Shown: positions 3,383-64,000, numbered from the stretch's first letter. The stretch: 64,000 bases of DNA from an uncultured Cytophagales bacterium (GCA_964418605.1 CAYQLY010000009.1:39132-103131), one strand, 5' to 3'. Program-made: numbers and translations. Notes: a model not told the origin generated them from the sequence alone.

Positions 3383-3388
3383 TTTTAA

Positions 3389-3979: not shown

Positions 3980-3981
3980 GC

Positions 3982-5574: not shown

Positions 5575-5577
5575 AAA

Positions 5578-6333: not shown

Positions 6334-6430
6334 AAAATAATTATTAAACTAAAATAAACTTTTATCTTATATTTTTTATAACCAATAAACTAAGTTTATA
6401 CTCTCTTAATGACAATAGAACAAAAACTAT

Positions 6431-6853
6431 ATGAAATACTACCACATTATTCTGATCATTATTGGATTCATTGTTTTCTTTTGTGCACTTTGGATCTTTA
6501 TTACTTTTTTAATTTCACGTACGGGAAGTTGGCATCAATTAAGTAAAACATATACTACATCGTATATCCCTCCAAAAGAAAAAATAATAAAAAGGCAATT
6601 AGGTAAAATAGGCATTGCTCGTTATAAGTTTAGTTTAACTATTGCTTTTACAGACCAAGGGCTTTATTTATCCGTAAATAAAGCATTTCGACTATTTCAT
6701 CCACCATTACTTATACCTTGGAATAAAATAAAAAATCCAAGAAAGTCAGCTGATATTCCTTACCGTTATGTAGTGGTGGATGTAAATGGCATAAAAGTAT
6801 CACTAGCTGAAAAACACTACGATTTGATTATGAAATACTTATCTATAAAGTAA
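6431..6853 (+). CDS. Hypothetical membrane-anchored protein
   Basis: 140-aa ORF with one N-terminal TM helix. No family recognised. Confidence 0.4.
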   Translation: MKYYHIILIIIGFIVFFCALWIFITFLISRTGSWHQLSKTYTTSYIPPKEKIIKRQLGKIGIARYKFSLTIAFTDQGLYLSVNKAFRLFHPPLLIPWNKIKNPRKSADIPYRYVVVDVNGIKVSLAEKHYDLIMKYLSIK

Positions 6854-6867
6854 ACTATAGCTAAAAA

Positions 6868-6904
6868 GAAAAAAGAGGGTTATATTCATTAACCCTCTTT
6901 TTTA
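6868..6904. terminator. Bidirectional intrinsic terminator between convergent genes
   Basis: AGAGGGTTA (6874-6882), 7-nt loop, TAACCCTCT (6890-6898), flanked by an A-run and a T-run. Confidence 0.6.
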
Positions 6905-6928
6905 AATAAGTAATTATTACAATACTAT

Positions 6929-8944
6929 TTACTCAATAATCATGCGCTTAACATCTACTTCAGATCCATCTACCATAAGGGTATAAATATACATTCCTTG
7001 AGCTAAATCTGCACCTGATTGTAACTTGATTTGACCTTCGCCTCTCGTAGCTATTTCTTGGCTTTTTATTTTTTTACCTGTCATATCATAAATCACTAAT
7101 ACGGCTCGTTGACTAGATTCAGGAATATGATAACCAATCACTGTTTCTCCTGAAAATGGATTAGGTATATTTTGGTCTAAGCGAGCTAATTTCAATGCAG
7201 ATATTTCTCCTTCCTGACGCATAGTAATAGAACCATTTAGTGATGTGGCATTTTTAAGCTCACCAATCTCTTTAGCTTGACGTGCTAGTTCTTGTTTCTG
7301 TTGATCAACCAAACTATTCAATTCTTTGATTGAATTAATTAACATATAAAAAACATCATTAGGATTATAAGATAAATATTCTTCCCTCACACCTGTTGTA
7401 TCTTGATATACATATGATCGGACTGTATGTGGTGCAATTTGCTGCATATCTTGTGCGACAATACCTACAAATGTTTCCGTAGTTGGAAGACCTGCTTTGC
7501 CGTTATATTTAAATAGTACAGGATTAATCTTTAAAATAGTAGAAAGACCATCTTTATATGGGGCTATAACTTCTTTCAATCGTCGATCTGAGGTTACTGT
7601 CCAAAATACACTACCTGGTTTTCCAGCATCATTTTTACTCAATTGAAATTGAAAACTTGGATTTGATAATCCTATACCTACCAAAGCAGAGTCAACATCC
7701 ACTCGTCCAAGCACAACACCATTACGCACAGTAGATCTACTTCTAGATCCAAGAGCTACACTGTAAGAAAAATTAGTTTTACTACCAGTTCCAAGAGCTA
7801 CAGAAAAGCTAGACTCTCCTAGTATAGATGATCCATTACCAATAGATACATTATTGACTCCATCTATATTACCATAACCAGAAAAAGAACCTATAAATAC
7901 ATTACCAACACCTGACTTGCTAGTAGGAGCTGAGGTGTATCCTATATAAGTATTAAAATCTCCACTCTCCGCTTTATTACCTGCTAAAGCACCAAGAAAC
8001 ATATTATTACTACCTATTATATTAGCTGCAGCTGTTTTATATCCCAAAAATACATTATAATTACCCGTTGTATTACTCATCGCTGTACTATCTCCTGCAA
8101 ATAAATTATGGCTTCCTGTACTATTAGAACTCCCTGTTTTATATCCTAAAAAAACATTGGAGCTCCCTGTTGTATTAGAAGAACCCGTAAGAAAACCTAG
8201 CATAACATTATACCCTCCCTCTGTATTAGAAAAACCAGCTTGAGCACCAACAAATACATTTTGTAACCCTGTTGTATTAAGATAGCCAGACTCTTTCCCA
8301 ATAAATGTATTCCAACTTCCATTATTAGAATACCCAGCTTGATCACCAATAAAAACATTAGCATATGCATCTAAATTAGAATACCCAGACTCACGACCTA
8401 TAAATGTATTGTAGCCACCTATTGTATTAGTATTACCTGATGCAAATCCCAAAAAAGTATTGTAATCTCCTGTATTGCGGAAACCCGAACCAGACCCAAT
8501 CAACGTACTGCCTTTAACACTAACTCCGGAATAACCTGTATTTACTCCAATATACACATTACTATAACCACTAATATTAGAATAACCTGCCTGAGTACCT
8601 ATAAATAAATTAAAACTACCATCTAAATTAGAATATCCGGACTTAGCCCCCATAAACAAGTTATATTCTCCACTTGTATTTTGAACACCAGCATCACTTC
8701 CTAAGAATACATTATAAGATCCAGAATTTCTAAATCCTGCCTGAAAACCTATGGAAACAGTATTCATACCCGAATCTTTATTCAATTCACCGGCCTTAAA
8801 ACCATAAAAACAAGAACCTGGGCCTTTTGATCCAGAATTTACTCCATAAGAAGTAATTGCCTGAGCATTAATCATTTTTGATTGATACATTATGCTAGAT
8901 AGCATAACTAGTTTAATAACTGAACTATAAATCTTCTTTTTCAT
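6929..8944 (-). CDS. Tail-fibre-like repeat protein with peptidase S74 intramolecular chaperone domain and T9SS type-A C-terminal sorting domain
   Basis: ORF 6929..8965, with the probable start at M8 (8944) giving signal peptide MKKKIYSS...INAQA. About 25 copies of a ~14-15-aa 'G(Y/F)SNtxGxxNvFxG' repeat (residues ~40-410). 'TSDRRLKE...VGIVAQDMQQIAPHTV' is an S74 autoproteolysis module. Coiled coil follows, then a C-terminal 'NIPNPFSGET...GMYIYTLMVDG...KRMIIE' T9SS tail. Confidence 0.75.
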   Translation of the reverse strand: MKKKIYSSVIKLVMLSSIMYQSKMINAQAITSYGVNSGSKGPGSCFYGFKAGELNKDSGMNTVSIGFQAGFRNSGSYNVFLGSDAGVQNTSGEYNLFMGAKSGYSNLDGSFNLFIGTQAGYSNISGYSNVYIGVNTGYSGVSVKGSTLIGSGSGFRNTGDYNTFLGFASGNTNTIGGYNTFIGRESGYSNLDAYANVFIGDQAGYSNNGSWNTFIGKESGYLNTTGLQNVFVGAQAGFSNTEGGYNVMLGFLTGSSNTTGSSNVFLGYKTGSSNSTGSHNLFAGDSTAMSNTTGNYNVFLGYKTAAANIIGSNNMFLGALAGNKAESGDFNTYIGYTSAPTSKSGVGNVFIGSFSGYGNIDGVNNVSIGNGSSILGESSFSVALGTGSKTNFSYSVALGSRSRSTVRNGVVLGRVDVDSALVGIGLSNPSFQFQLSKNDAGKPGSVFWTVTSDRRLKEVIAPYKDGLSTILKINPVLFKYNGKAGLPTTETFVGIVAQDMQQIAPHTVRSYVYQDTTGVREEYLSYNPNDVFYMLINSIKELNSLVDQQKQELARQAKEIGELKNATSLNGSITMRQEGEISALKLARLDQNIPNPFSGETVIGYHIPESSQRAVLVIYDMTGKKIKSQEIATRGEGQIKLQSGADLAQGMYIYTLMVDGSEVDVKRMIIE

Positions 8945-39145: not shown

Positions 39146-39240
39146 AATTAAACTCTCAAATAACGTAAATCTTAGCCATCTGCAAAAATAAATAACCCCA
39201 AGCATAAGATTTTTAAAGCTTTCCTATTTGATCTAAATTG

Positions 39241-39660
39241 AATTAAATTAATAAATTTTATAACTATTTTATTATATTATAATATTTATATAATATTTTT
39301 ATTTTATAAAAATAATTATATAAATATATACAAATTATTATAAAAATTATATTTATGTAATTATTATTGAATTATTTTTATATAAAATATAATAATATTT
39401 TTGTAAATTAATATATAATATAAATCTTAATTTATATTATATATATAAATATTATACTATTATTTTAATTAAAAATTTGAATTAACTACTTGATAAACAA
39501 TATAATATTAAATAATAAAAAAAATAGTATATTTGTTTTGTAATAAAAAAAAATAATTGTATATTTGATACCTTTTTTAAAACAAGGTGATTAAATAAAA
39601 AACATATAATTCATATTTAATTATATATATAAATATATTTTTATATATGATTAAATAGAT
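39241..39660. other. Extreme A+T tract (hand count 27 G/C in 420 nt; 8 G/C in the first 240 nt)
   Basis: Counted directly from the sequence. No ORF. Irregular low-complexity ATA/TAT/AAT words with no fixed period. Confidence 0.85.
39528..39567 (+). promoter_or_regulatory. Two tandem TATATTTG boxes (Bacteroidota -7 consensus TAnnTTTG), each preceded by an A8-9 run
   Basis: TATATTTG at 39528-39535 and 39560-39567. The same octamer precedes the cobalamin riboswitch at 42903. Confidence 0.3.
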
Positions 39661-39677
39661 TAATAAAATTGGATAAA

Positions 39678-39875
39678 ATGAAATTAGAATATAAAAAATA
39701 TAAAAATATAGATGCCTCTTACACTTTTGAGGGGGCAAAACGGCTTTGGACTACCATAAACAACAAAACAAACAAAACCTACTTTACGGTCCAAACAACC
39801 GGAGATGGGATAATCTTAACCTATCCTATCTCCTTTTTATTATTTTTCAATAGAAACAACTTAAGTGGTACATAA
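39678..39875 (+). CDS. Small hypothetical ORF (65 aa from the ATG), or the body of a non-coding RNA
   Basis: The only G/C-normal island in a 0.9-kb intergenic gap. The ORF is bisected by a strong terminator-like hairpin at 39801-39838, so its coding status is doubtful. Confidence 0.3.
   Translation: MKLEYKKYKNIDASYTFEGAKRLWTTINNKTNKTYFTVQTTGDGIILTYPISFLLFFNRNNLSGT
39801..39838 (+). terminator. Intrinsic terminator-like hairpin inside the small ORF
   Basis: 12-bp stem GGAGATGGGATA / TATCCTATCTCC (one G-U pair), 9-nt loop, followed by TTTTTATTATTTTT. Confidence 0.5.
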
Positions 39876-39906
39876 AAGTAAGTGTTAATTAAAAAGCGTA
39901 AAAACT

Positions 39907-39941
39907 GAAAAATAGCCATCTTTTAGATGGCTATTTTTTTA
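39907..39941 (+). terminator. Second intrinsic terminator
   Basis: ATAGCCATC (39912-20) / GATGGCTAT (39926-34), with an A-run before and T7 after. Confidence 0.6.
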
Positions 39942-40123
39942 TCCCTAAATTGATAAAAAATCAACATTTTATTAAACTTTGATTAATACATAGCCTAAAT
40001 CAATAGGATTTAAAATTTAACTTATTTAATATTAAATTAAATTTTTTTTAGTTTCTTCTCTTGTAGATTATTAAAAAAATAACTAAATTCGCATGCTAAA
40101 AAAGATTAATACACTTAACACTT

Positions 40124-42829
40124 ATGAGAAACATATACAAAATAGCAACATTAGTCTTATCAACAATCTTAGTCAGCTCAATTACTTATGCCACTACCTA
40201 CTATGCTAGGAATACAGGAGATTGGAATAGCGCAATGACCTGGGTAACAGGTGACTGTGCCAGCATGACGAATGCAACTGGAAGCTATCCTAAAGCGGGA
40301 GACTTGGCTGTATTATGCAATAATAAAACGGTAACAATCAAAGGCAATGAATCTGTTCAAGATATAAGTATTGACGATGGAACACTTGCTTTTGGAAACG
40401 GGGCAAACTATACCTTAACTATTTCTGGAAATCTTACTCTTAATAACAAAGGAATTCTGGAGTATACATTTAATTCTGGAAGACAGCATACGCTTAGTAT
40501 TGGGGGAAACTTGACTAATGAAGGGAAAGTAGATCTATTAAGTGATTCCAATGATTATGTCAGCATTACATTCAATGGTGCTTCTAACACGGTTGTATCT
40601 GGTGGGGGGCAATGGCGGTCTTTAGCCTTCATAACACTGAATAAAAGCACTAAAAACACAGTGTTAGACTTGCAAGACGCTGGTTTTTCTAACGAACTCA
40701 CTAAAGGGGCTAATACTATTTCAAAAACTTCAGTCGTACTTACAAGAGGTACACTAAAACACAATAATACAGGAACATTAGGGAATGTATATGAAGCAGG
40801 GCTTACAAAGGCAGATATATTTCATATACCTTATGATGTGATTTTACAAGTAAGCAAAGGTGTAGTAGATAATCCTTCTACAGAATCAACCTATTTAAAT
40901 GGAAAAATTATTGTGGATGGGGGAACATTAAATATCACATCTGGTTCTACTTTTCCTACCTATGAAGGATTACTGTATACTAATACCACAAATTACGCAG
41001 AATTATACATTACATCAGGAACTCTAAATATAAGTGGTGCATTTACGAATCAAGGTAGTAGCTTAGTTGATTTTAACATGTCTGGCGGAACTATGAATAT
41101 ATCTACCAACGGCGCAACAGGAGAAACGTTTTATTTAGTTTCTGATTGTAATTTTAACATGTCTGGTGGAACTATTATTATTCACAATAAATCAAACTAT
41201 ACTCATCCTCTAATTGGACCTAAAGTCGATTTCAGTGTATGGGAAGCAAGCACCTATAATGTAACCGGTGGCACTATTCAGTTTGGTGGATCTTCTTCTA
41301 CAACTGCTCAAACATTTCGCCTAGATACAGATACCGAAATATTACCAAATATTGTTCTAGCAGGTCCGATGGGTAAAGGAGCTACTCTTCTTCCTTATGA
41401 TGGTGGAGATCTTAAAATGATGAGTTTAAAAATTAATACAGGTAATACATTTGATATCCGAGATATTCAATTTTTTTATAATGACTCTAAAAAGTTAACC
41501 CTCACGTCTACTAACAATGGAGGTTATGCTTTTTCTAATAGTGGTACATTCACTGCTCGTACGAGTACAGTTATACTCAATGGAGCTGATCAAAGTATTT
41601 CAGGAAGTACAGCAACTAATTTTTACAATTTAACAATTAATAATATTACTGCTCTATTACCAGCTGCCACAACCTTCAATACCAATGCTACGGTGACCAA
41701 TACGCTTACGATGTTGAATGGGCTTATAAGTTTAAATAGCAACACATTGACATTAGGAACTTCTGCTGCAAGTACAGGAACATTAGCATATACTTCAGGT
41801 TGGATGGAAGGTGGTACATTTACACGATTCTTTTCTACAACTACCATTGCTGATGGTACCGGAACAACTAAAGGTTTTTTCCCTATGGGAACTAAAACCG
41901 ATGCACGTTCTTTTTATCTATCAGCCCCTACAACAGCACCTACAACTGGTGGTTCTGTATCAATATCTCATACCTCTACAAAAAAACGTACAGCTGTTTC
42001 ATTTCCAGATGGTATGGCTATGGTTCTTGCACGTCGAGATGACCCATGGAGTATAACTTCTAATCTAGTTGGTGGAACTTATAACTTAGTAGCAGGTGGT
42101 ACTGGCTTCCCTGGTATAGGCAATATTGCTAATCTAAGACTTACTTTGAACACTAGCGTAGTAGGAACTGCTGGAACCAATACAGGAACTAATGCAAATC
42201 CACAGGTACAACGTACAGGTCTTAGTGCTGGGCAGCTTTCTAATAACTTCTTCATTAGTTCTGTAGACATTATTAACTCACCATTACCTGTAGAGCTTAC
42301 AGCCTTTTATGCGCACCCTCTATCTGAAACAATCACTATCTTTTGGACTACAGCTAGTGAAAAGAATAATGCTTCTTTCGAAGTATTAAAAAGTACAGAT
42401 GGCATCACATTTAGTACAATTGCCACTATACAAGGAAAAGGCAATTCCAATACAACAACTAACTATGAAACAACTGATGCGTATCCATTAAATGGAACGA
42501 GCTACTACCAGCTCAAACAAATAGATTATGATGGTCACATTAATTATTCTTCTATTATTTCAGGTGAGTGGTCAACAAGTGGATTCCAGATTTATCCTAG
42601 CCCAGTAGAAGCTAATCAGTCTTTACATATCTTAATTCCAATAAGCATGAGCGAAACTCATCTTAAATTAACTACATTATACGGAGATATTGTATTTGAA
42701 AAAACAATCCAGCCTTCTACTCAAAGTGAATTAGTAGAAATTAACTGTGTTCATTTATCTTCTGGTATCTATATAGTCAATAGTTCAAATGGAACAAACC
42801 AGTGGAAAAAGAAAATAATTATAAAATAA
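40124..42829 (+). CDS. Large secreted beta-helix-like protein with T9SS type-A C-terminal domain (paralogue B)
   Basis: 901 aa with a signal peptide. 'TTYYARNTGDWNSAMTWVTGDC...YPKAGDLAVLC' is homologous to the 27738..30548 product. 'LPVELTAFYA...YYQLKQIDYDGH' Ig/Fn3-like module, then 'IYPSPV...GIYIVNSSNG...KKIIIK' tail. Confidence 0.7.
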   Translation: MRNIYKIATLVLSTILVSSITYATTYYARNTGDWNSAMTWVTGDCASMTNATGSYPKAGDLAVLCNNKTVTIKGNESVQDISIDDGTLAFGNGANYTLTISGNLTLNNKGILEYTFNSGRQHTLSIGGNLTNEGKVDLLSDSNDYVSITFNGASNTVVSGGGQWRSLAFITLNKSTKNTVLDLQDAGFSNELTKGANTISKTSVVLTRGTLKHNNTGTLGNVYEAGLTKADIFHIPYDVILQVSKGVVDNPSTESTYLNGKIIVDGGTLNITSGSTFPTYEGLLYTNTTNYAELYITSGTLNISGAFTNQGSSLVDFNMSGGTMNISTNGATGETFYLVSDCNFNMSGGTIIIHNKSNYTHPLIGPKVDFSVWEASTYNVTGGTIQFGGSSSTTAQTFRLDTDTEILPNIVLAGPMGKGATLLPYDGGDLKMMSLKINTGNTFDIRDIQFFYNDSKKLTLTSTNNGGYAFSNSGTFTARTSTVILNGADQSISGSTATNFYNLTINNITALLPAATTFNTNATVTNTLTMLNGLISLNSNTLTLGTSAASTGTLAYTSGWMEGGTFTRFFSTTTIADGTGTTKGFFPMGTKTDARSFYLSAPTTAPTTGGSVSISHTSTKKRTAVSFPDGMAMVLARRDDPWSITSNLVGGTYNLVAGGTGFPGIGNIANLRLTLNTSVVGTAGTNTGTNANPQVQRTGLSAGQLSNNFFISSVDIINSPLPVELTAFYAHPLSETITIFWTTASEKNNASFEVLKSTDGITFSTIATIQGKGNSNTTTNYETTDAYPLNGTSYYQLKQIDYDGHINYSSIISGEWSTSGFQIYPSPVEANQSLHILIPISMSETHLKLTTLYGDIVFEKTIQPSTQSELVEINCVHLSSGIYIVNSSNGTNQWKKKIIIK

Positions 42830-42902: not shown

Positions 42903-42910
42903 TATATTTG
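42903..42910 (+). promoter_or_regulatory. Candidate -7 box TATATTTG for the riboswitch-btuB transcript
   Basis: Exact TAnnTTTG match just upstream of the riboswitch aptamer. Confidence 0.4.
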
Positions 42911-42914
42911 CTAC

Positions 42915-43075
42915 AAGTAAGTATAGGTGTTCGCAAGAACTTAATAGGGAATTTCGTGTAAAACGAAAGCTGTTCCCGCAACTGTAACCTCTACAAAGCT
43001 GTTATCAACAAAGTCACTCTTTTTAAAAAAGGGGAAGACCATAACAGTGAGGCAAGCCAGGAGACCTACCTGTAC
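42915..43075 (+). promoter_or_regulatory. Cobalamin (B12) riboswitch
   Basis: Conserved core 'AATAGGGAA...GTG.AAA.CGAAAGCTGTTCCCGCAACTGTAA' and B12 box 'AAGCCAGGAGACCTACC'. Lies immediately upstream of a BtuB-like TonB-dependent receptor. The expression platform (43076-43200) is not resolved. Confidence 0.8.
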
Positions 43076-43202
43076 ATTAAATTTCTTTTAAGCGCTTTCG
43101 GGTAAAAAGCAGAAAGGATGAGTGTCTTATATTATCCAAAGACATGTCTTCGTTTTTAAATTCCTGAATAGCTCTTAAGAAAGTTAAACTTTTACCTCAT
43201 TA

Positions 43203-45098
43203 ATGAGTTATATATATAAAATTTTTGTTTTATTTTTTCTTCTCCATCTACAACTTTTAGCAGTAGGGCAGCAAGATACTATTCAGCTCAAAGAAATACA
43301 GATTACTACTCCAGCACAACGTGGTATATATACCCATGGCTATAAAATCATAAACTTAGATTCTAGTAGCTCCCTATTACAATCCCAATCACTTTCCTAT
43401 ATCCTATCTCTCCAACCATCTTTATTTATTAAATCCTATGGCAATGGGATGCTATCCACACTATCTATTCGAGGATCAAGCTCTACACATACGGCTTTAT
43501 TATGGAATGGTATTAATATTAATTTACCAACAGTTGGACAAACAGACTTCAGTTTAATAGCGTTGTCAACAGCCGATCATATTTCAATGACGTATGGTGG
43601 CTCAAGTGCATTGGTAGGGAGTGATGGAATTGGAGGAAGTATCAATATATCCTCTTCCATTCCTAAAGAGTGGAATAAATCCAATGAATTAAACATAAGT
43701 CAATCCATTGGTAGCTTTAAAAATATCTATTCTTCTTTACATTTCTCTTCTATAAGGAAAAAAACAAGCCATTCAATTAAAGCATACCGCTCATATTGTG
43801 AAAACCAATTTCCATTTAAGAATATTACTAAACCAGGCTCGCCTATTGAAAAACAACAGAACGCTGATTTTTATCAATATGGGTATACCGAAGATTTTCA
43901 TGTCAAACTCACTAACCGACAGCTTCTTTCTATACATGCATGGGCAACATATATGAATCGAGCTATACAACCAAGCATGTTCAACAATACAATTACAAAT
44001 GAAAAACAAGAGGATGCTAATGTAAGAGGATTACTTTCTTACCAATACGAATCATCTATAGGTTATCTTACCTGCAAGATAGCTTATCTATACGACTGGA
44101 TTGCCTATAGCAATCCACTGCTAGGGCGATTTATTTATCAAACCCACCGCCTAACAGGAACAGCAGAGCAAGATATAAAAAAGTTTAAAAAAACAGCCTT
44201 TAAAATTGGCGGCATATTCAATCATGTCAAAGGCATAGCAAATGAATATGAAGAAGAAATCACTGAATTACGCTATGATATTTATCTCTCTACAGAGTAT
44301 AGACCATCCGAACGCCTCCAATTATCTATGACCTTAAGACAACCTTTTGTTAATAACAGTTCATTACCTCTAATTCCATCCATCGGTGCAGACTACCGCG
44401 TATTTCAAAAACACAATTATACCATCCACATCAAATCAACTCTATCTAAATCTTACAGATTACCTACTTTAAATGAACGCTACTGGAAACCAGGTGGAAA
44501 TCCAGATATCAAACCCGAAGAATCTATCGGTTATGAAACAGGATTTACCATTCAAAAAAGTAGTTCTATGATTGAGCATCAAGTTGAGCTAAGCCATTAC
44601 AATTACACTGTAAAAAATTGGATTTTATGGCTTCCATATGCGTTTTATTTTAAATCTGAAAATATTGAAAAAGTACAAAATTATGGATTTGAATTTTTAT
44701 ATAATTTATCTTATAATTTAAAAAGCATTAAACTGCAATCAAGCGCCAGCTATAGCTATACAAGAACATTTTACATAGAACAAAATAATGAAAAAAAACA
44801 ACTCCCTTATATTCCTTTTCACAGTGGAACAATACACCATTCGATTTCATATAAACAGACTAAATTACATATAAATTGCTCATTTTCAGGATATAAAAAC
44901 ATATCTACTAGTTCGAAATCAACCCCTATTCAACTGATTGATTTGGGCGTAGAAAAAAAATTCAACCTTAAAAAAGAATCGTATTTATGCCTATCATTCT
45001 ATATCAATAATATACTTAATCAGGCTTACCAATTATATGAATATAAATCTATTCCAGGAATTAATTATAATTTATCTATACTTTTTAAAATTAAATAA
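43203..45098 (+). CDS. btuB: TonB-dependent outer-membrane receptor, BtuB-like
   Basis: 631 aa. Signal peptide and plug-domain motifs ('LSIRGSSSTHTALLWNGININ'). Preceded by the B12 riboswitch. Confidence 0.8.
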   Translation: MSYIYKIFVLFFLLHLQLLAVGQQDTIQLKEIQITTPAQRGIYTHGYKIINLDSSSSLLQSQSLSYILSLQPSLFIKSYGNGMLSTLSIRGSSSTHTALLWNGININLPTVGQTDFSLIALSTADHISMTYGGSSALVGSDGIGGSINISSSIPKEWNKSNELNISQSIGSFKNIYSSLHFSSIRKKTSHSIKAYRSYCENQFPFKNITKPGSPIEKQQNADFYQYGYTEDFHVKLTNRQLLSIHAWATYMNRAIQPSMFNNTITNEKQEDANVRGLLSYQYESSIGYLTCKIAYLYDWIAYSNPLLGRFIYQTHRLTGTAEQDIKKFKKTAFKIGGIFNHVKGIANEYEEEITELRYDIYLSTEYRPSERLQLSMTLRQPFVNNSSLPLIPSIGADYRVFQKHNYTIHIKSTLSKSYRLPTLNERYWKPGGNPDIKPEESIGYETGFTIQKSSSMIEHQVELSHYNYTVKNWILWLPYAFYFKSENIEKVQNYGFEFLYNLSYNLKSIKLQSSASYSYTRTFYIEQNNEKKQLPYIPFHSGTIHHSISYKQTKLHINCSFSGYKNISTSSKSTPIQLIDLGVEKKFNLKKESYLCLSFYINNILNQAYQLYEYKSIPGINYNLSILFKIK

Positions 45099-53716: not shown

Positions 53717-54625
53717 ATGCGAACACTGCCTTACATCTTAATGTTATTAACCATTACCCTTTCTTGTCAACGCTATGTTAAAAAAAAAGATACTGTTTAT
53801 AGCTTTATTTACTACGATGATTTAGGACGAAAAATCAGTCTCACACATACACCGAAGCGAATCCTATCCCTCGCCCCTTCCATGACTGAAATGCTTTTTG
53901 CTGTATGCGATACAAGCTATATTATTGGTGTAACAGAACATTGCAACTATCCAGAAGCCGCAGTTCATAAAGAAAAAATACATACTTATCCGCTTGATGT
54001 AGAACATATTTTTACGCTAAAGCCTGATATTATTTTTACAAAAGACGGGATGATCTCCTTAGATCATATTCAGAAGATAGAAGAAATGGGTATACCACTA
54101 TACATTCAGAGCTATAAAACGGTAAATGACATTTTCAATGGATTATTAAAAATTGGCAAGATTATTGGTGAAGAAAAAAAGTCAATAATACTTGTTGATT
54201 CATTAAAGAAAGAATTAGAAAAAATTAAAATAAATACCACGTCTAAGAAAAAGATAACTGTATTAGCTATCACCTGGTATGATCCTATTTACGCCTATGG
54301 ATATTCTTCTTTATTTACAGACAAACTGCATTTACTCGGTGTAGACAATGCGGTAGACTCATCAATCTCTTCTCCTTATCCGGTCTTGAGTCGCGAATAT
54401 ATTTTAAAGATTAATCCAGATATTATTATTGGAAAATCATTTGATACCATGAACTCTTCTTTTTTTATATTATATCCAGAGCTCAAATCGATAAAAGCCT
54501 ACAAAAACAATCATATATACGCCATTACAGATGACTTACATTCAAGACCAAGTCCCCGTATTATTGAATCCATGATTGAGCTGAAAAATATTATTAACTT
54601 TACAATAGCTAATAAAACATTATAA
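53717..54625 (+). CDS. ABC transporter periplasmic binding lipoprotein, BtuF/FhuD-like (cluster A-II)
   Basis: 302 aa with lipobox 'LSC' and 'PKRILSLAPSMTEMLFAV...KPDIIF', typical of B12/siderophore binding proteins. Confidence 0.75.
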   Translation: MRTLPYILMLLTITLSCQRYVKKKDTVYSFIYYDDLGRKISLTHTPKRILSLAPSMTEMLFAVCDTSYIIGVTEHCNYPEAAVHKEKIHTYPLDVEHIFTLKPDIIFTKDGMISLDHIQKIEEMGIPLYIQSYKTVNDIFNGLLKIGKIIGEEKKSIILVDSLKKELEKIKINTTSKKKITVLAITWYDPIYAYGYSSLFTDKLHLLGVDNAVDSSISSPYPVLSREYILKINPDIIIGKSFDTMNSSFFILYPELKSIKAYKNNHIYAITDDLHSRPSPRIIESMIELKNIINFTIANKTL

Positions 54626-54630
54626 AAGTT

Positions 54631-55749
54631 ATGATAACAAAACGAAGTACTTTGTCTTTTATTTTACTTTTTTATACATTAAGCCTCTATAGCCAAATGA
54701 ACAACACTTCCAAATGGTTTTTACTTCCCCAAAAAACAGAAACCAAACTTTGCACATTTGTGAATAACAAAATTATGGAAATAACAGTAATAGATGTTCC
54801 TCAGAATAGTAAATATGCTATTGATGAAAATGATTTTGTTGTAAACTTAGACTTAGATACAATTTATATTTGCCAGATTAATGAAAAAAAGGAGTCAATT
54901 AAATATTATCCTAAATTACCTATTCCACCTACCATAGCTGCTGATTGTATTGCTATAAAAGATGGCATCATCTATATAGGAGGGAAAAAAAATCAAGGGC
55001 ATGGCGAAATTCTATTATTATACGATATAAAAAAAGAAGAATGGAGAACTATACCTATACCAGCTGAAATTATTACAGGATACACAAAATCTATTGATGA
55101 CCTACTCATTGAAAAGGATATATTAATTGCTGTTGACGATATTGCATCTCCAAAATATCTTATTGAATACACTATCCAAAATCCTTCTTCACCTGTTTTA
55201 TCAAAAGTACAAAAACTTGAAAATTCAGGGCCTTATGAACATATTCAAAAAGGATCTTCAAATTCGAATTACATCGCACTACTATCTACTTCATCTGGAC
55301 TTTATGAAATATCAAACATTATTGCTATTTATTCAAAAAAAAGAAACTATCAAAATCCGTTTATTTGGTTAACAAGTAAAAAACAGGGGGAGACATCCAC
55401 CAAATCCAATAAAAAAAATAATCCAAATATAGGGTTAGACCCTTTCTATGAATGGAAAGATATTTTACTTATAGAGAACCATCTATTTATCGCTGCTAAG
55501 GAAGAAGGCATAGGTCATTTTATATTTTCAGATAGTCTTTTCAAAAGCTCTAGTGATCAATCAAAATTTATTCAAAACTATATAGAAAAATATCATGGCA
55601 TCATTAATTACATAAAACAAAAAGAAGGTAGTGTAGTAAAATTACAAGCCATCCCAAATAATACCCACTTTTTCATAGCTATTATCCAGTATAATGGGAT
55701 TTATACTTATAAACTAATCCCTACCTCTCCTAATAATGAAAAAAAATAA
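54631..55749 (+). CDS. Hypothetical secreted protein inserted between the btuF-like and btuC-like genes
   Basis: 372 aa with a signal peptide. AT-rich, no family recognised. Overlaps the permease start by 14 nt. Confidence 0.45.
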   Translation: MITKRSTLSFILLFYTLSLYSQMNNTSKWFLLPQKTETKLCTFVNNKIMEITVIDVPQNSKYAIDENDFVVNLDLDTIYICQINEKKESIKYYPKLPIPPTIAADCIAIKDGIIYIGGKKNQGHGEILLLYDIKKEEWRTIPIPAEIITGYTKSIDDLLIEKDILIAVDDIASPKYLIEYTIQNPSSPVLSKVQKLENSGPYEHIQKGSSNSNYIALLSTSSGLYEISNIIAIYSKKRNYQNPFIWLTSKKQGETSTKSNKKNNPNIGLDPFYEWKDILLIENHLFIAAKEEGIGHFIFSDSLFKSSSDQSKFIQNYIEKYHGIINYIKQKEGSVVKLQAIPNNTHFFIAIIQYNGIYTYKLIPTSPNNEKK

Positions 55750-56743
55750 TCTATTAACTATATTAGCTTTTTTCTTAATTCCGTTATTAGTAAGCTATGA
55801 ACTCTATTTAGGAAGCATACCTATTAAAACATCCACCATAATCAACTCACTCGTTGATTATGATTCTTCCAACCAGCTTCATTACGTTATTATTTATTTG
55901 CGATTACCTCGCATTATATTAGCTTTTTTGGTTGGAAGTGGATTAGCACTAAGTGGCTATTTAATGCAGTCTTTATTAAATAACCCATTAGCTGATCCTT
56001 ATACTTTAGGCACAGCTGCAGGCGGGGCATTAGGTGCTAGTGTTGCTTTTCTAGGGCTACCTATTTTTTCTTTTCTTCACTTTATTTACTCTCCTTTTAT
56101 TTTTGCATTCATAGGATCATTAAGCGTGACTATTCTCGTTGTCTCACTCGCTTATCGAAAGAAAAACATAAGCACCAATCATCTTCTCCTCGCAGGTATT
56201 TCTATAAGCTCACTGATCGCCTCACTCATTACAGTATTGCATTTTTTATCGGACTCTGCAGAAAAGCTTCGAGCAGTTGTTTTTTGGGCTATGGGAGGAT
56301 TAGAAAAGGCCAGTTGGAATTTTATTTTTATTCCTTTTTTTATTATTTTGATAGCCTGGATCTTATTTTCACTTCTACATAAAGAATTAAATATCTTATT
56401 GCTTGGCGAAGCTAAAGCCATCAATATAGGCATGAAGGTAAAAAAAATAAAGTGGATTATCTTATTAGGAAGTTGCTTTGTAACAGGAAGCTTAGTAGCT
56501 ATCTGTGGGCCTATTGGATTCGTTGGATTAATCGTTCCACACGTCGTACGAGGCAGGTATGGCACTACCAATAGATGGAATATCTCCTATTGTATTCTTT
56601 ATGGTGGCATTCTAATGTTAGTAGCAGATAGTGTTTCTCGACTTATTTATCCACCAACTGGTTTACCTGCAGGCATCATTACTTCACTTGTAGGCATTCC
56701 ATTTCTACTGTATTTGCTTTATAAAAAGAATAATTTAGATTAA
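55736..56743 (+). CDS. FecCD-family ABC transporter permease (BtuC-like)
   Basis: 335-aa polytopic ORF with 'NPLADPYTLGTAAGGALGA' and 'GPIGFVGLIVPH' motifs. Confidence 0.8.
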   Translation: MKKNNLLTILAFFLIPLLVSYELYLGSIPIKTSTIINSLVDYDSSNQLHYVIIYLRLPRIILAFLVGSGLALSGYLMQSLLNNPLADPYTLGTAAGGALGASVAFLGLPIFSFLHFIYSPFIFAFIGSLSVTILVVSLAYRKKNISTNHLLLAGISISSLIASLITVLHFLSDSAEKLRAVVFWAMGGLEKASWNFIFIPFFIILIAWILFSLLHKELNILLLGEAKAINIGMKVKKIKWIILLGSCFVTGSLVAICGPIGFVGLIVPHVVRGRYGTTNRWNISYCILYGGILMLVADSVSRLIYPPTGLPAGIITSLVGIPFLLYLLYKKNNLD

Positions 56744-60382: not shown

Positions 60383-63300
60383 ATGAAAGCTAACGAGATA
60401 CGACAAAAGTTTTTAGATTTTTTTAAAGAAAAAAAACACCTTATCGTTTCCTCAGCTCCTTTGGTCATTAAAAATGATCCTACGCTGCTATTCACCAATG
60501 CAGGTATGAACCCATTTAAAGATTTTTTCTTAGGTCATAAACCCATTACAGATAAACGAATTGCTAACACACAAAAGTGTCTTCGTGTATCAGGAAAACA
60601 CAATGATTTAGAAGAAGTAGGAATTGATACCTACCACCATACATTATTTGAAATGTTAGGCAATTGGTCATTTGGGGATTATTTTAAAAAAGAATCTATT
60701 GCTTGGGCATGGGAGTTATTAACTGAAGTATATCATCTTCCAAAAGAGCGCTTATATGTCACTGTATTTGAAGGTGATCCCTCTGAAAAGTTAGATTTTG
60801 ATCAAGAAGCTTATGATCTTTGGAAACAATTCATCTCCGAAGATCGAATCATACGAGGGTCCAAAAAAGATAACTTTTGGGAAATGGGTGAAACAGGTCC
60901 ATGCGGGCCATGCTCTGAAATTCATATTGACTTACGTTCTGAAGAAAAAATAAAAAAAATACCAGGAAAAAGCTTAGTCAACACAGGCGATCCAGAGGTT
61001 ATTGAAGTATGGAATTTGGTGTTTATGCAATTTAACCGATTAGCCAATGGAAAACTGGAATCACTTCCAGCAAAACATGTAGATACAGGGATGGGATTTG
61101 AACGCTTGGTTCGAGCCATTCAACAAAAATCATCAAACTACGATACCGATGTTTTTCAACCCATTATTCAGTTTATTGAACAACAATCAAAAATTAAATA
61201 TGGCTCAAACGAAAAAACAGATATCGCCATGCGTGTCCTGGCTGACCATATTCGAGCAGTATCGTTTGCCATTGCAGATGGACAATTACCCTCAAATAAT
61301 AAAGCAGGCTATGTCATTCGTCGTATTTTGCGAAGAGCCGTTCGATACGCCTATACATTTCTTCATTTTAAAGAACCGTTTTTATATCAACTCGTTCCAA
61401 TTTTAGCTGCACAATTTAAAGGTGTATTCGATGAACTTTTTTCACAAAAAGAATTTGTCGCTAAGGTGATTCAAGAAGAGGAGAATTCTTTTTTACGAAC
61501 ATTAGAAAATGGAATTAAAAAATTTGAACAAAGTATCGAGAAAAATAAAATTTCTGGAAAAGTAGCATTCGAACTATACGATACATTTGGATTTCCGTTG
61601 GATCTTACACAACTTTTAGCTCGGGAAAAAAATATTGACGTTGATGTCAATGAATTTGAAAAAGAAATGCAAATTCAAAAAGATCGTTCTCGACAAGCTG
61701 ACTCAAAAGAAACAGGCGATTGGATCCAAGTTCATCCCGATGAAAATGTAAAATTTAGTGGATACAATGAATTAGAATCTACTTCAACCATTACCAAATA
61801 CCGACTGATTAAAACAAAAGACCAATCGTATTATCAAATCGTATTGAATAAAACACCTTTTTATGCCGAAAGTGGTGGTCAAATTGGCGATACAGGCTAT
61901 TTAGAGGCTGGAAAAGAAAAAATTGAAATCATTGATACAAAAAAAGAAAATGAATTGATTATTCATATTACTAAAAAACTTCCAACTGAATTAAAAGCTT
62001 CAGTTAAATCTGTAGTGAATAAAGATAAACGCATTCAAACACAAAATAATCACACCGCTACGCATCTTTTACATGCAGCATTGAAACAAGTATTAGGAAC
62101 ACATGTGAATCAAAAAGGATCGTATGTGAGTGATGAAATTCTTCGATTCGATTTTTCTCATTTTAGCAAAATGACAGAAATGGAAATTGAAAAGGTAGAG
62201 CGAATAGTAAATCAAAAAATCCGAGAAAATATTGCAGCTGATATTCAAATCATGCCAATCGAAAAAGCACAACAACTCGGCGCGATGGCTTTATTTGGAG
62301 AAAAATATGGGAACGTCGTTCGCGTGGTTACCTTTGATAAAGATTATTCCATTGAATTATGTGGAGGCACACACGTCGCAGCGACAGGCACCATTGGTTT
62401 TTTCAAAATCACTTCCGAAAGCTCTGTAGCTGCGGGTGTACGAAGAATTGAAGCCATTACCGGAAAAAAAGCAGACGAATATATTAATAGTAAATTAAAA
62501 ATAATAGATGAAATAAAAGAGATTTTAAAAAATCCAAAAGATATTAAAAAAGCAGCTGATAAAATAATAGCTGAAAAAGGAGAATTGGCTAAAGCGGTCG
62601 AATTTGTAAATCATCGACAAGCACAACAAGTAAAACAATACCTACTTGATAAAGCTAAGAAAGAAGGAGTAATTAATTTCATTGCTGAAAAAGTAGATAT
62701 ACCTTCTGAAGAATCAATGAAACAAATTGCTTTTGAACTAAAATCAAAATTATCTAATTTATTTCTAGTAATCGCAGCTGAAATCAATGGAAAACCACAA
62801 ATTGCAATTCTAATTTCTGAGGAGTTAGTAAAATCTAAAAATCATCATGCAGGAAATTTAGTGAAAAAATGGGCAAAAGAAATTAATGGCGATGGTGGTG
62901 GGCAAGCTTTTTATGCAACAGCAGGGGGAACAGATTTAAAGGGATTAGATAATGTTATTATAAAAGCTAGAGATTTGATCCTAGATAAAAATAAATATGC
63001 TAGTGATTTATTAGAAATTGCAAAAAATGATATAGGAGCTTCTAAGCTTTTGTATGAAAACAAGTTTTTTCCTCAATCAGTTTTTTATCTTCAACAAAGT
63101 GTTGAAAAAATAGCTAAAAGTTTTGGAGTATACTTTGAAATAATAATTTCAAAAAAAGATTTAATTAAAGAAATAAATCACAGTCCAAGCAAGGTTTTTC
63201 ATAAGATGTTAGAAATAAGTTTAAACTATACGGATAAAATTCCAGATGAAGAACTTAAAAAAAATATAAATGAAGGAATGAAAGATTCAATAAACATCTC

Positions 63301-63730
63301 TAAACAATTAAATAATAGAAACTTATTTATAGATTTATCAGATAATGAAATAATTGATTTAATAAATTTAGGAACAACTTATGACAATGAAAAAAATGAA
63401 ATTATTAAAAAAATAAATGAACTATCTATTGATCAAACTATAACATTTATAAGATCTAAACTTAACATCCCAGACTTAAATGAATATATTAAAAATGTGA
63501 ATCATAAATTTTTAAAAAAATATTTCATTCATACTATTTTAGCATCATATCTTCCTTTGAGATTAGGAGTATTAGCTAATTTAACACAACATCATGCTAT
63601 AGATTCAAGATATAATAAAGATTCTTATACAGAAAATCTACCTTTGATTAAAAAATTATACCAATTATTTAATTTACTAGATAATAGTATATTAGACATT
63701 GAATATTTAATAAAAGAAACTAATGAATAA
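60383..63730 (+). CDS. alaS: Alanine--tRNA ligase with an in-frame ~245-aa C-terminal HEPN-like extension
   Basis: 1115-aa ORF. Class-II core, editing-site 'HTATHLLH' and 'CGGTH', and C-Ala 'GDGGGQAFYATAGG' are all present by about residue 870. The frame then continues without a stop. Confidence 0.85.
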   Translation: MKANEIRQKFLDFFKEKKHLIVSSAPLVIKNDPTLLFTNAGMNPFKDFFLGHKPITDKRIANTQKCLRVSGKHNDLEEVGIDTYHHTLFEMLGNWSFGDYFKKESIAWAWELLTEVYHLPKERLYVTVFEGDPSEKLDFDQEAYDLWKQFISEDRIIRGSKKDNFWEMGETGPCGPCSEIHIDLRSEEKIKKIPGKSLVNTGDPEVIEVWNLVFMQFNRLANGKLESLPAKHVDTGMGFERLVRAIQQKSSNYDTDVFQPIIQFIEQQSKIKYGSNEKTDIAMRVLADHIRAVSFAIADGQLPSNNKAGYVIRRILRRAVRYAYTFLHFKEPFLYQLVPILAAQFKGVFDELFSQKEFVAKVIQEEENSFLRTLENGIKKFEQSIEKNKISGKVAFELYDTFGFPLDLTQLLAREKNIDVDVNEFEKEMQIQKDRSRQADSKETGDWIQVHPDENVKFSGYNELESTSTITKYRLIKTKDQSYYQIVLNKTPFYAESGGQIGDTGYLEAGKEKIEIIDTKKENELIIHITKKLPTELKASVKSVVNKDKRIQTQNNHTATHLLHAALKQVLGTHVNQKGSYVSDEILRFDFSHFSKMTEMEIEKVERIVNQKIRENIAADIQIMPIEKAQQLGAMALFGEKYGNVVRVVTFDKDYSIELCGGTHVAATGTIGFFKITSESSVAAGVRRIEAITGKKADEYINSKLKIIDEIKEILKNPKDIKKAADKIIAEKGELAKAVEFVNHRQAQQVKQYLLDKAKKEGVINFIAEKVDIPSEESMKQIAFELKSKLSNLFLVIAAEINGKPQIAILISEELVKSKNHHAGNLVKKWAKEINGDGGGQAFYATAGGTDLKGLDNVIIKARDLILDKNKYASDLLEIAKNDIGASKLLYENKFFPQSVFYLQQSVEKIAKSFGVYFEIIISKKDLIKEINHSPSKVFHKMLEISLNYTDKIPDEELKKNINEGMKDSINISKQLNNRNLFIDLSDNEIIDLINLGTTYDNEKNEIIKKINELSIDQTITFIRSKLNIPDLNEYIKNVNHKFLKKYFIHTILASYLPLRLGVLANLTQHHAIDSRYNKDSYTENLPLIKKLYQLFNLLDNSILDIEYLIKETNE
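62983..63727 (+). other. HEPN-like domain region fused to alaS
   Basis: 'LLEIAKNDIGASKLLYENKFFPQSVFYLQQSVEKIAKSF' and 'LTQHHAIDSRYNKDSYTENL' match the first and last conserved helices of classical HEPN. Hand-sampled G+C is about 13-15%, against about 30% in the alaS core. Confidence 0.55.
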
Positions 63731-64000
63731 ATCTTACGAAGCCGTCATCGGATTAGAAGTACATGCGCAATTGCTTACCAAAAGTAAAATGTATTCATCT
63801 GATATTTCGGAATATGGAAACTTACCGAATACAAATATTAGTGTCATCACCCTAGCTCATCCAGGTACACTTCCGAAAGTCAATAAAACAGCCATTGAAT
63901 ATGCGATCAAAATGGGAATTGCCTGTGAATCAAAAATTACAGAATACAATATTTTTGCACGAAAAAACTATTTTTATCCTGATCTTCCAAAAGGATATCA
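63723..64000 (+). CDS. gatB: Asp/Glu-tRNA(Asn/Gln) amidotransferase subunit B (5' part, runs off the window)
   Basis: 'MNKSYEAVIGLEVHAQL...YFYPDLPKGY' is the canonical GatB N-terminus. Its ATG overlaps the alaS-HEPN stop (ATGAATAA). Confidence 0.85.
   Translation, partial: MNKSYEAVIGLEVHAQLLTKSKMYSSDISEYGNLPNTNISVITLAHPGTLPKVNKTAIEYAIKMGIACESKITEYNIFARKNYFYPDLPKGY

What the first reader, a model, noticed from the sequence alone, without database searches (positions are those of the whole stretch)
62980..63730. AlaRS continues in frame into a very AT-rich HEPN-like domain that overlaps gatB
Every recognisable AlaRS module is complete by about residue 870 ('...GDGGGQAFYATAGGTDLKGLDNVIIKARDLI'). 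That is where bacterial AlaRS normally ends, about 25 aa after the GGG..A.AGG motif. Here the frame stays open for about 245 more codons. The extension opens with 'LLEIAKNDIGASKLLYENKFFPQSVFYLQQSVEKIAKSF', which fits the classical HEPN pattern A..DL..A..L...........QQ..EK..K. It closes with 'HHAIDSRYNKDSYTENL', which fits the HEPN C-terminal ..sRYp....y helix. A K/N/I-rich insert of about 130 aa lies between them. I see no Rx4-6H RNase motif, so the domain may bind RNA without cleaving it, or be divergent. Composition drops sharply: hand-sampled lines give about 13-15% G+C, against about 30% in the catalytic core. This suggests a late acquisition. The stop codon overlaps the gatB ATG, so the extra domain sits between two tRNA-charging enzymes. 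HEPN modules are the RNA-targeting parts of toxin-antitoxin and defence systems, and HepT-type HEPN toxins cut tRNA 3' acceptor ends. I do not know of a HEPN domain covalently fused to a tRNA synthetase.
Basis: partly seen in the sequence, partly recalled or inferred. Interest (0 to 1): 0.75.

Follow-up and report, generated by a model that had tools for sequence, protein, structure and literature searches.

The report
AlaRS with an acquired HEPN tail
In this low-GC Bacteroidota genome the alanyl-tRNA synthetase gene runs without a stop codon into a foreign-looking HEPN domain of about 240 residues wedged between alaS and gatB; no other sequence I could search has this domain combination, but it rests on one genome and its function is untested.

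Summary
ORF 60383-63730 encodes 1115 aa: a complete AlaRS (residues 1-865) followed in frame by 250 more residues. Its stop overlaps the gatB ATG (ATGAATAA).

The extension is a real HEPN domain. It scores 34.3 bits against Pfam PF05168 (cut-off 22). It aligns end to end with a large family of stand-alone HEPN proteins of about 285 aa that carry a helical insert. It keeps the family's most conserved polar residues (E908, K909, H933, H1071, R1076, Y1077).

It has no Rx4-6H motif. Instead it has the alternative His + Arg arrangement described for AF0298/TM0613-type HEPNs and AbiV.

The domain looks acquired. G+C is 20.9% against 33.5±3.4% for 51 neighbouring ORFs. The closest Cytophagales relatives have alaS-gatB with only a 17-100 nt spacer. 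All 71 related AlaRS that could be parsed end at 846-907 aa.

Stand-alone homologues mostly sit in defence islands, a type I R-M operon or an IS-flanked region, never next to alaS or gatB. No second AlaRS-HEPN fusion was found.

The junction could not be checked independently, because the source genome is not in the searchable collections. Whether the tail does anything for AlaRS is unknown. I rate it a new domain architecture built from known parts, of moderate interest.

The parts
60383..62977 (+). alaS proper: AlaRS residues 1-865, comprising the aminoacylation, tRNA_SAD/editing and C-Ala/DHHA1 domains
   Evidence: TIGR00344 at 947 bits covers residues 5-848. PF01411 covers 5-541, PF07973 646-690 and PF02272 765-865. 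The editing motifs HLLH and CGGTH are visible in the translation. Orthologues end at the equivalent of residues 865-875.
62978..63007 (+). Junction or linker 'ILDKNKYASD' (residues 866-875). It contains the A5 run at 62987-62991. No stop codon and no in-frame ATG or GTG lie here; the only in-frame alternative start nearby is TTG at 62975.
   Evidence: Stand-alone homologues begin with M plus 4-8 residues directly before the LLEIA helix. The AF2 model makes residues 4-27 of the extension one helix.
63008..63142 (+). HEPN helices 1-2 ('LLEIAKNDIGASKLLYENKFFPQSVFYLQQSVEKIAKSFG'). They carry family-invariant Q905, E908, K909 and K912.
   Evidence: PF05168 positions 2-48 match at 34.3 bits. Conserved columns are listed. 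pLDDT is 91-98. Foldseek gives a local match to 1ufb with rmsd 0.6 Å over 44 columns.
63179..63181 (+). Codon for H933 (extension residue H68). This is the family-invariant histidine just after helix 2, and the candidate 'alternative' catalytic His.
   Evidence: It is 100% conserved in the 75 family members. The position corresponds to the alternative His described for AF0298-type HEPN-T proteins and AbiV (PMC3710099, read).
63143..63502 (+). Helical insert between HEPN helix 2 and helix 3 (extension residues 56-175). It is K/N/I-rich and has the lowest G+C of the extension.
   Evidence: The insert is present in all homologues and is about 40 aa shorter here. AF2 predicts helices with pLDDT 58-92. 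G+C is 17.7-20.7%.
63503..63628 (+). HEPN helix 3 and the H-x4-R-Y motif ('LANLTQHHAIDSRYNKDSY'). It carries H1070/H1071, R1076, Y1077 and Y1082.
   Evidence: Family columns are H 91%, R 99%, Y 99% and Y 95% conserved, and all are kept here. The stretch aligns weakly to the RYP motif of TM0613. With the insert removed in silico, the PF05168 match extends to model position 97 of 117 at 38.4 bits.
63641..63727 (+). HEPN helix 4 ('PLIKKLYQLFNLLDNSILDIEYLIKETNE')
   Evidence: The family HMM aligns through position 280 of 288. AF2 predicts a helix at extension residues 227-249 with pLDDT 88-95.
63723..63730 (+). ATGAATAA: the gatB start codon (63723-25) overlapping the fusion ORF's stop (63728-30)
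   Evidence: The gatB N-terminus MNKSYEAVIGLEVH matches relatives from residue 1-5 onward.
63723..64000 (+). gatB, 5' part (runs off the end of the window)
   Evidence: tblastn gives 50-83% identity to the gene immediately downstream of alaS in Cytophagales loci.

Best explanation
A mobile, stand-alone HEPN gene of the type found in defence islands landed in the short spacer between alaS and gatB of this lineage. alaS then lost its stop codon and the HEPN gene lost its own start. The housekeeping AlaRS is therefore now made with a C-terminal HEPN tail of about 240 residues, and the end of that tail overlaps the gatB start.

Shown:
- The reading frame is continuous.
- The AlaRS part is complete.
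- The tail is a full-length member of a large 'long HEPN' family within PF05168 and keeps that family's conserved polar residues.
- Its composition looks foreign.
- Relatives have alaS-gatB without it.
- Stand-alone homologues live in defence or mobile contexts.

Inferred:
- The AlaRS part works as a normal synthetase.
- The tail folds as a HEPN four-helix core with a helical insert and probably pairs with the tail of the second subunit, because AlaRS dimerises through C-Ala and HEPN domains act as dimers.
- If active, it is a metal-independent RNA-binding or RNase module that uses H933/H1071 + R1076 rather than Rx4-6H. It would then be a leftover or co-opted conflict-system effector, not part of aminoacylation.
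- Translation through the tail now also delivers ribosomes to gatB, which helps keep the frame open.
For: Frame and AlaRS:
- ORF is continuous, with 0 stops in 250 codons against 12-43 in the other frames.
- AlaRS is complete.

HEPN identity:
- PF05168 scores above its cut-off for the window and for all 12 homologues.
- A family HMM built without the window matches positions 4-280 of 288 at 132.5 bits.
- 25 of 32 strongly conserved columns are kept; family members average 27.9, minimum 21.
- A family profile hits TM0613 (1o3u) at E = 3.3e-4.
- The AF2 model has pLDDT 82 and is all-helical. Foldseek gives local matches to the HEPN structures 1ufb (prob 0.99) and 1wol (prob 0.94).

Acquisition:
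- G+C is 20.9% and GC3 10.8%, against 33.5±3.4% and 24.0±3.2% for 51 ORFs.
- M23 peptidase-alaS-gatB synteny with a 17-100 nt spacer is seen in the closest Cytophagales genomes.
- No canonical start codon exists for a separate HEPN gene.

Context of homologues:
- Neighbours include GmrSD plus methyltransferases, SIR2_2, DUF4145, a position between hsdS and hsdR alongside TIR/AbiJ genes, and IS transposases.

Literature:
- The alternative-His arrangement and the linkage of this HEPN clade to R-M systems are described in PMC3710099.
- AbiV is reported as an RNase in bioRxiv 10.1101/2024.05.05.592566.
Against: - Only one genome carries the fusion. The source genome and any close relative are missing from every collection (best AlaRS identity 63%). 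The junction therefore cannot be verified, and selection on the tail cannot be measured.
- A 1-nt homopolymer error in the A5 run would restore a normal-length AlaRS.
- Intact conserved residues could reflect a very recent acquisition rather than selection. The un-ameliorated GC3 fits that.
- Structural support for the C-terminal half of the HEPN core is weak. Foldseek E-values exceed 1. Removing the insert in silico raises the Pfam score by only 4 bits. The C-terminal part alone gives no Pfam hit.
- No RNase or RNA-binding activity has been shown for any member of this long-HEPN family.
- A constitutively co-expressed active RNase on an essential enzyme would be expected to be harmful.
Confidence: 0.55

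Rival explanations
1. Artefact or separate expression. alaS really ends near ...DLILDKK, and the HEPN protein is made separately. The continuous ORF would then come from a base-calling or assembly error in the A-rich junction. Alternatively the HEPN part is translated on its own from the in-frame TTG at 62975.
For: One extra A in the A5 run 62987-62991 gives TAA and an AlaRS of 875 aa, exactly the orthologue length. All 162 homologues whose lengths were seen are stand-alone proteins of 200-350 aa. An in-frame TTG lies 11 codons before the LLEIA helix.
Against: After such a correction the HEPN frame is closed upstream by TAG. It then has no ATG, GTG or TTG before the conserved first helix, so a second error or a non-canonical start would be needed (and direct reading). 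In DNA with 21% G+C almost any frameshift meets a stop at once, so 'one base away from a stop' is not evidence of error. The neighbouring genes checked give full-length Pfam matches, so the assembly shows no sign of frequent indels.
Confidence: 0.2
2. Neutral passenger. The fusion is real, but the tail is functionless baggage on AlaRS. The frame would be kept open only because gatB translation is now coupled to it, and the tail is drifting towards AT-richness and deletion.
For: It has the lowest G+C and GC3 of any coding stretch in the window. It is about 40 aa shorter than family members and has lost the Pro of RYP and six residues after it. No partner gene or defence context surrounds it. 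The 8-nt overlap with gatB suggests translational coupling.
Against: Every invariant or near-invariant polar residue of the family is retained. Its conserved-column score (25 of 32) is within the family range. There are no frameshifts or stops in 250 codons of DNA that is 79% A+T. These facts would also fit a very recent acquisition, so this rival is weakened rather than excluded.
Confidence: 0.15
3. Co-opted tRNA module. The HEPN tail has been recruited to AlaRS function itself. It might serve as an extra tRNA-binding or regulatory domain, or as a tRNA-directed nuclease that acts on tRNA bound to, or released from, the synthetase.
For: HEPN nucleases with tRNA substrates are established. PrrC and RloC cut anticodon loops (PMC3710099). 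From my own knowledge, some HepT toxins trim tRNA 3' ends. One stand-alone homologue occupies the PrrC-like slot between hsdS and hsdR. C-Ala, to which the tail is attached, binds the tRNA elbow and dimerises AlaRS (established knowledge). The family's polar constellation is intact.
Against: No second example of any AlaRS-HEPN fusion was found in the searches run. None of the 8 homologue neighbourhoods contains alaS, gatB or any other recognised translation gene. The alaS-gatB adjacency is ancestral synteny, not something organised around the tail. The tail's net charge is near neutral (pI 6.4, only 4 Arg).
Confidence: 0.1

Closest known systems
Stand-alone PF05168 'HEPN-T' proteins (TM0613 / 1o3u, AF0298 / 2hsb, TT1696 / 1ufb, ST0689 / 1wol)
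   Same: The helix-1/helix-2 signature (DL..A..L....QQ..EK..K) is the same. So are the conserved His after helix 2 and the Arg-Tyr(-Pro) motif before helix 4, without the His of Rx4-6H. Both are linked to R-M systems and defence islands.
   Different: [quoted passage not shown] It is covalently attached to an aminoacyl-tRNA synthetase. No MNT partner is present.
AbiV (Lactococcus abortive-infection HEPN RNase; PF18728, TIGR04498)
   Same: Both have an all-helical HEPN core. AbiV's closest solved structural neighbours, 2hsb and 1ufb, are the type of HEPN structure this domain matches. There is weak sequence similarity (18.3 bits for PF18728). A preprint reports AbiV as a metal-independent RNase acting on rRNA.
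   Different: The match is below both curated cut-offs (27.1 and 27 bits). AbiV uses 91-RNHKSKH-97, an Rx5H motif, which is absent here. AbiV has about 200 aa and works with an RNA partner (abiV2).
PrrC / RloC anticodon nucleases
   Same: These are HEPN nucleases aimed at tRNA. PrrC sits inside a type I R-M operon, as does the stand-alone homologue P0093, which lies between hsdS and hsdR.
   Different: PrrC and RloC have an N-terminal ABC-ATPase regulator and a canonical Rx4-6H motif. No sequence match to them was seen. Here the N-terminal partner is a housekeeping synthetase.
HepT-MntA (HEPN-MNT, type VII toxin-antitoxin)
   Same: It belongs to the HEPN superfamily. From my own knowledge, some HepT toxins cleave tRNA acceptor ends.
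   Different: No MNT gene lies beside the window's domain or in any of the 8 homologue neighbourhoods. There is no Rx4HxY motif. It belongs to a different Pfam family (PF05168, not the HepT/DUF86 type).
Canonical bacterial AlaRS (TIGR00344)
   Same: Residues 1-865 are an ordinary, complete AlaRS in the orthologous M23 peptidase-alaS-gatB position.
   Different: It has 250 extra C-terminal residues. The 71 related Bacteroidota AlaRS that could be parsed end at 846-907 aa.

Membership tests
HEPN domain, Pfam PF05168 | Score at or above the Pfam gathering cut-off (22 bits) | tested here: met
   The score is 34.3 bits, but only model positions 2-48 of 117 are covered. It rises to 38.4 bits over positions 2-97 when the insert is removed in silico. 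All 12 homologues also pass.
HEPN domain, Pfam PF05168 | Four-helix up-and-down bundle resembling solved HEPN structures | tested here: inconclusive
   The AF2 model has pLDDT 82 and is all-helical. Foldseek finds only local matches to 1ufb (44 columns, prob 0.99) and 1wol (66 columns, prob 0.94), with E-values above 1. No global match appears, because of the insert. A family profile hits 1o3u at E = 3.3e-4.
HEPN superfamily (catalytic versions) | Rx4-6H endoRNase motif | tested here: not met
   The regular-expression scan finds none; only H1070-x5-R1076 is present.
AF0298/TM0613-type HEPN-T clade (Anantharaman et al. 2013) | [quoted passage not shown] | tested here: met
   R1076 is 99% conserved and H933 100% conserved in 75 family members, and both are present in the window. 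The clade description is from PMC3710099.
'Long HEPN' family (stand-alone proteins of about 285 aa; 2043 representatives at E ≤ 1e-3) | End-to-end match to a family profile built without the query | tested here: met
   HMM positions 4-280 of 288 match at 132.5 bits. 25 of 32 conserved columns are kept.
AbiV (PF18728 / TIGR04498) | Score at or above the curated cut-offs (27.1 and 27 bits) | tested here: not met
   Scores are 18.3 and 14.5 bits.
HEPN-MNT type VII toxin-antitoxin | An adjacent minimal nucleotidyltransferase gene | tested here: not met
   The neighbours here are the alaS body and gatB. No nucleotidyltransferase (MNT) Pfam family appears among the genes listed in the 8 homologue contexts.
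Known anti-phage defence systems (PADLOC-DB 2.0) | A significant match to a system component model | tested here: not met
   Only chance-level hits were found, with E = 0.027 for the window.
HEPN RNases in general | Homodimer with a composite active site; metal-independent RNA cleavage | not testable with these tools
   This needs a multimer model or biochemistry.
Alanine-tRNA ligase (TIGR00344 equivalog) | Full-length match above the cut-off (457 bits), with editing motifs and C-Ala present | tested here: met
   The score is 947 bits over model positions 1-846 of 847. The motifs HLLH, CGGTH and GGGQ..ATAGG are in the translation.

The most novel reading that the evidence does not exclude
The HEPN tail is a working RNA nuclease or sensor that evolution has tethered to AlaRS. 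The synthetase would deliver or present tRNA (tRNA-Ala or others) to it. This could form a built-in abortive-infection or stress switch that cuts tRNA at the charging enzyme. It would be the first aminoacyl-tRNA synthetase with a covalently attached HEPN effector.
Probability: 0.12. Interest if true: 0.8.

Novelty: new variant of a known kind. Interest (0 to 1): 0.45.

Why it matters
HEPN domains are the RNA-cutting parts of many defence and toxin systems, and several of them act on tRNA. Substrates are unknown for most stand-alone PF05168-type HEPNs, including this large insert-bearing family of 2043 representative clusters.

A natural fusion to AlaRS would be a rare Rosetta-stone hint that this family acts on tRNA or on the translation apparatus. 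It would also show a defence-island gene captured by an essential housekeeping operon.

If the fusion is only a recent accident, it still shows how stop-codon loss in an AT-rich genome can weld a mobile gene onto an essential enzyme and couple it to the next gene. Either way the claim rests on a single sequence, so its weight is limited until the junction and a phenotype are confirmed.

Tried and rejected
1. Independent copies of the junction. Exact look-ups of the 1115-aa protein, of GroEL and of a neighbouring 536-aa protein found nothing. The source genome is therefore not on record. The best AlaRS in 185,579 species genomes is 63% identical.
2. Metagenome scan for any GGGQ...QQxxEK arrangement. 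None of the 120 loci encodes an AlaRS C-terminus or a family member, so the scan is uninformative.
3. Viral contigs (IMG/VR) searched with the family alignment gave no relatives. The phage collection gave none. Plasmids gave two weak Sulfolobus hits.
4. Global fold search of the AF2 model against PDB and BFVD gave no significant global match.
5. Conserved partner gene. The small ORFs downstream of two homologues are unrelated to each other and match no defence model.
6. Mobile-element scars around the insertion. There are no flanking repeats at the borders, no terminator, and promoter-like sites at the chance level.
7. A combined C-Ala + HEPN alignment for a second AF2 run (A2) misaligned the HEPN half, so the job was not submitted.
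8. I rejected it as evidence, because off-frame stops are everywhere in this DNA (12-43 per frame). The possibility of an error remains.
9. L079's 'X' run at the AlaRS C-terminus is a 100-N scaffold gap, not a masked relative. L020's apparent match to residue 902 is not an extension; its ORF is 875 aa.
Full report
**What is in the sequence**

The + strand ORF 60383..63730 encodes 1115 aa with no internal stop. Residues 5-848 match the alaS equivalog TIGR00344 at 947 bits. Pfam places tRNA-synt_2c at 5-541, tRNA_SAD at 646-690 and DHHA1 at 765-865.

I fetched the 80 most similar AlaRS genes from one genome for each of 185,579 species; identity was at most 63%, and Cytophagales ranked first. All 71 that my script could parse end at 846-907 aa, which is 0-6 residues after the position of the window's '...KARDLI'. 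So AlaRS is complete at about residue 865-875, and the frame then continues for 250 codons (62978-63727).

That stretch has no stop in frame, while the other five frames carry 12-43 stops. For its base composition, 250 open codons have a chance of about 2e-12. It is therefore a real coding frame. The stop TAA (63728-30) overlaps the ATG of gatB (63723-25) in ATGAATAA.

**Composition**

The extension has 20.9% G+C and 10.8% GC3. The 51 other ORFs of at least 150 aa in the window average 33.5±3.4% and 24.0±3.2%, with minima of 24.4% and 15.9%. The AlaRS core has 33.8% and 21.8%.

**What the extension is**

- Pfam HEPN (PF05168) matches extension residues 9-55 at 34.3 bits (cut-off 22). AbiV models score below their cut-offs.
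- A search of 5.8 billion proteins returned only stand-alone PF05168 proteins of 200-310 aa. The best full-length identity was 30-34%.
- An exhaustive profile search of 1.84 billion cluster representatives found 2043 family members at E ≤ 1e-3 and 270 at E ≤ 1e-30. The 150 best are all 219-347 aa.
- An HMM built from 75 members without the window aligns to the extension end to end (positions 4-280 of 288, 132.5 bits).
- The K/N/I-rich middle is therefore a family-wide helical insertion between HEPN helix 2 and helix 3, about 40 aa shorter here. It is not a private low-complexity filler.
- Of 32 columns conserved in at least 70% of members, the window keeps 25; members average 27.9, with a minimum of 21. 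The kept columns include every invariant or near-invariant polar residue: Q905, E908, K909, K912, H933, H1071, R1076, Y1077 and Y1082 (full-length number = extension number + 865).
- The family profile hits the solved HEPN protein TM0613 (1o3u) at E = 3.3e-4. A second, weak segment pairs the family's SRYP...Y motif with TM0613's TRYP...RY.
- An AlphaFold2 model (pLDDT 82.4, pTM 0.82) is entirely helical. Foldseek finds no significant global match. It gives local matches to the HEPN structures 1ufb (44 columns, rmsd 0.6 Å, prob 0.99) and 1wol (66 columns, prob 0.94).
- Removing the insert in silico lets the Pfam model align through position 97 of 117 and raises the score only to 38.4 bits. The C-terminal piece alone gives no hit.

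I take membership of the HEPN superfamily as well supported for the N-terminal half. For the C-terminal half it is supported by motifs rather than proven by structure.

**Catalytic motif**

Anantharaman et al. [quoted passage not shown] In those proteins the Arg is kept and the motif's His is lost. [quoted passage not shown]

H933 (100% conserved) and R1076 (99%) fit that description. A preprint reports AbiV as an EDTA-insensitive RNase acting on rRNA, although AbiV itself has an Rx5H motif. 'No Rx4-6H' therefore does not imply a non-catalytic domain. Activity is simply untested for this family.

**How it got there**

In the nearest Cytophagales genomes the order is M23 peptidase (opposite strand), then alaS, then gatB. 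Only 17-100 nt separate the alaS stop from the gatB start, and there is no HEPN gene. The window has the same flanks, with about 730 nt of HEPN coding sequence filling the spacer. Together with the composition, this indicates a lineage-specific insertion of foreign DNA.

I examined eight neighbourhoods of stand-alone homologues. They contain:
- GmrSD plus two methyltransferases, HNH and SNase genes;
- SIR2_2 (two neighbourhoods) and DUF4145;
- a DUF87 ATPase and a DEAD_2 helicase;
- a type I R-M operon, in which the homologue lies between hsdS and hsdR beside TIR, AbiJ and Schlafen-like genes;
- IS transposases.

Two neighbourhoods were uninformative. None has alaS, gatB or any other recognised translation gene. 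No conserved partner gene and no PADLOC system match were found. No relatives occur in IMG/VR viral contigs or in the phage collection, and two weak hits lie on Sulfolobus plasmids. The family behaves like the R-M- and defence-island-linked solo HEPNs of the literature. The window's copy is out of that context.

**Is the fusion real?**

One extra A would give ...DLILDKK*, a normal AlaRS length. In DNA that is 79% A+T, however, nearly any frameshift meets a stop at once, so this is not evidence of error.

After such a correction the HEPN frame would be closed by TAG just upstream. It would have no ATG, GTG or TTG before its conserved first helix. The only in-frame alternative starts are TTG 62975, inside the AlaRS tail, and TTG 63050, inside helix 1. 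Stand-alone relatives start 4-8 residues before LLEIA. Two independent errors, or a non-canonical start, would be needed to separate the genes.

The neighbouring genes checked give full-length Pfam matches, which argues against an indel-ridden assembly. Single substitutions such as TAA to AAA or TAA to TAT at the junction codons would be enough to remove a stop. I cannot go further: the genome and any close relative are absent from every searchable collection. This also means the apparent uniqueness of the fusion may partly reflect that absence.

**Mechanism**

My best reading (confidence 0.55) is a genuine translational fusion. A normal AlaRS carries a captured conflict-system HEPN module at the end of C-Ala.

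AlaRS dimerises through C-Ala, and HEPN nucleases work as dimers (established knowledge; for AbiV). The two tails could therefore pair. If active, they would form a metal-independent RNA-binding or RNase site from H933, H1071 and R1076. The 8-nt overlap with gatB means ribosomes finishing the tail are positioned at the gatB start, which adds pressure to keep the frame open.

The rivals are:
- a sequencing artefact or separate expression (0.2);
- a real but functionless, decaying passenger (0.15), weakened by the retained conserved residues but not excluded, because a very recent acquisition would look the same;
- true co-option for tRNA handling (0.1), attractive because PrrC, RloC and some HepT toxins cut tRNA, but unsupported by any second example or by gene context.

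**Novelty and score**

Both parts are known kinds; the combination is new as far as I could search. No protein carried both domains among the hits. None of the 71 parsed related AlaRS is extended. None of the top 150 family representatives is long. The literature search for HEPN with alanyl-tRNA synthetase returned no papers.

I rate it a new variant (a new domain architecture) of known kinds, with interest 0.45. It is a suggestive Rosetta-stone-type hint for an uncharacterised HEPN family, but it is a single unverified instance with no functional evidence.

Noticed in passing
window 39205-40124: A non-coding stretch of about 920 nt with roughly 16% G+C. It is full of AT-only low-complexity tandem repeats. 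It lies upstream of a 901-aa protein with a Por_Secre_tail (T9SS sorting) domain (40124-42829). It is the only other place in the window as AT-rich as the HEPN extension.
   Followed up: partly
window 42908-43087 (+): A cobalamin riboswitch (RF00174, 104.5 bits) upstream of ORF 43203-45098. FecCD-type permease and periplasmic-binding-protein genes lie further downstream, at 53717-56743.
   Followed up: no
window 62875-62888 and 63712-63725: A 14-nt direct repeat AAAAGAAAYTAATG (13 of 14 identical). One copy is inside alaS (..AKEING..); the other ends in the gatB ATG. It does not sit at the insertion borders and may be chance in AT-rich DNA.
   Followed up: no
L001, L003, L004, L006, L012, L020, L028, L060 (positions about 2900-7000): The order M23 peptidase (divergent), then alaS, then gatB is conserved in the closest Cytophagales genomes, with a 17-100 nt alaS-gatB spacer. 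Some of them carry two or three tandem M23 paralogues upstream.
   Followed up: partly
L090 / L091, 1-8475: A metagenomic type I R-M operon (hsdM ... hsdS, HEPN, hsdR). The long-HEPN homologue P0093 overlaps both hsdS and hsdR. Schlafen/AlbA, AbiJ_NTD4 and TIR genes are inserted between hsdM and hsdS. This layout resembles PrrC.
   Followed up: partly
window 3389-3979 and 4199-4948: These are the lowest-G+C ORFs elsewhere in the window (24.4% and 26.7%), so they may be further acquired genes.
   Followed up: no
L079 6565-6664: A 100-N scaffold gap falls exactly on the C-terminus of that MAG's alaS. Its AlaRS end therefore cannot be read, and it was excluded from the length survey.
   Followed up: yes
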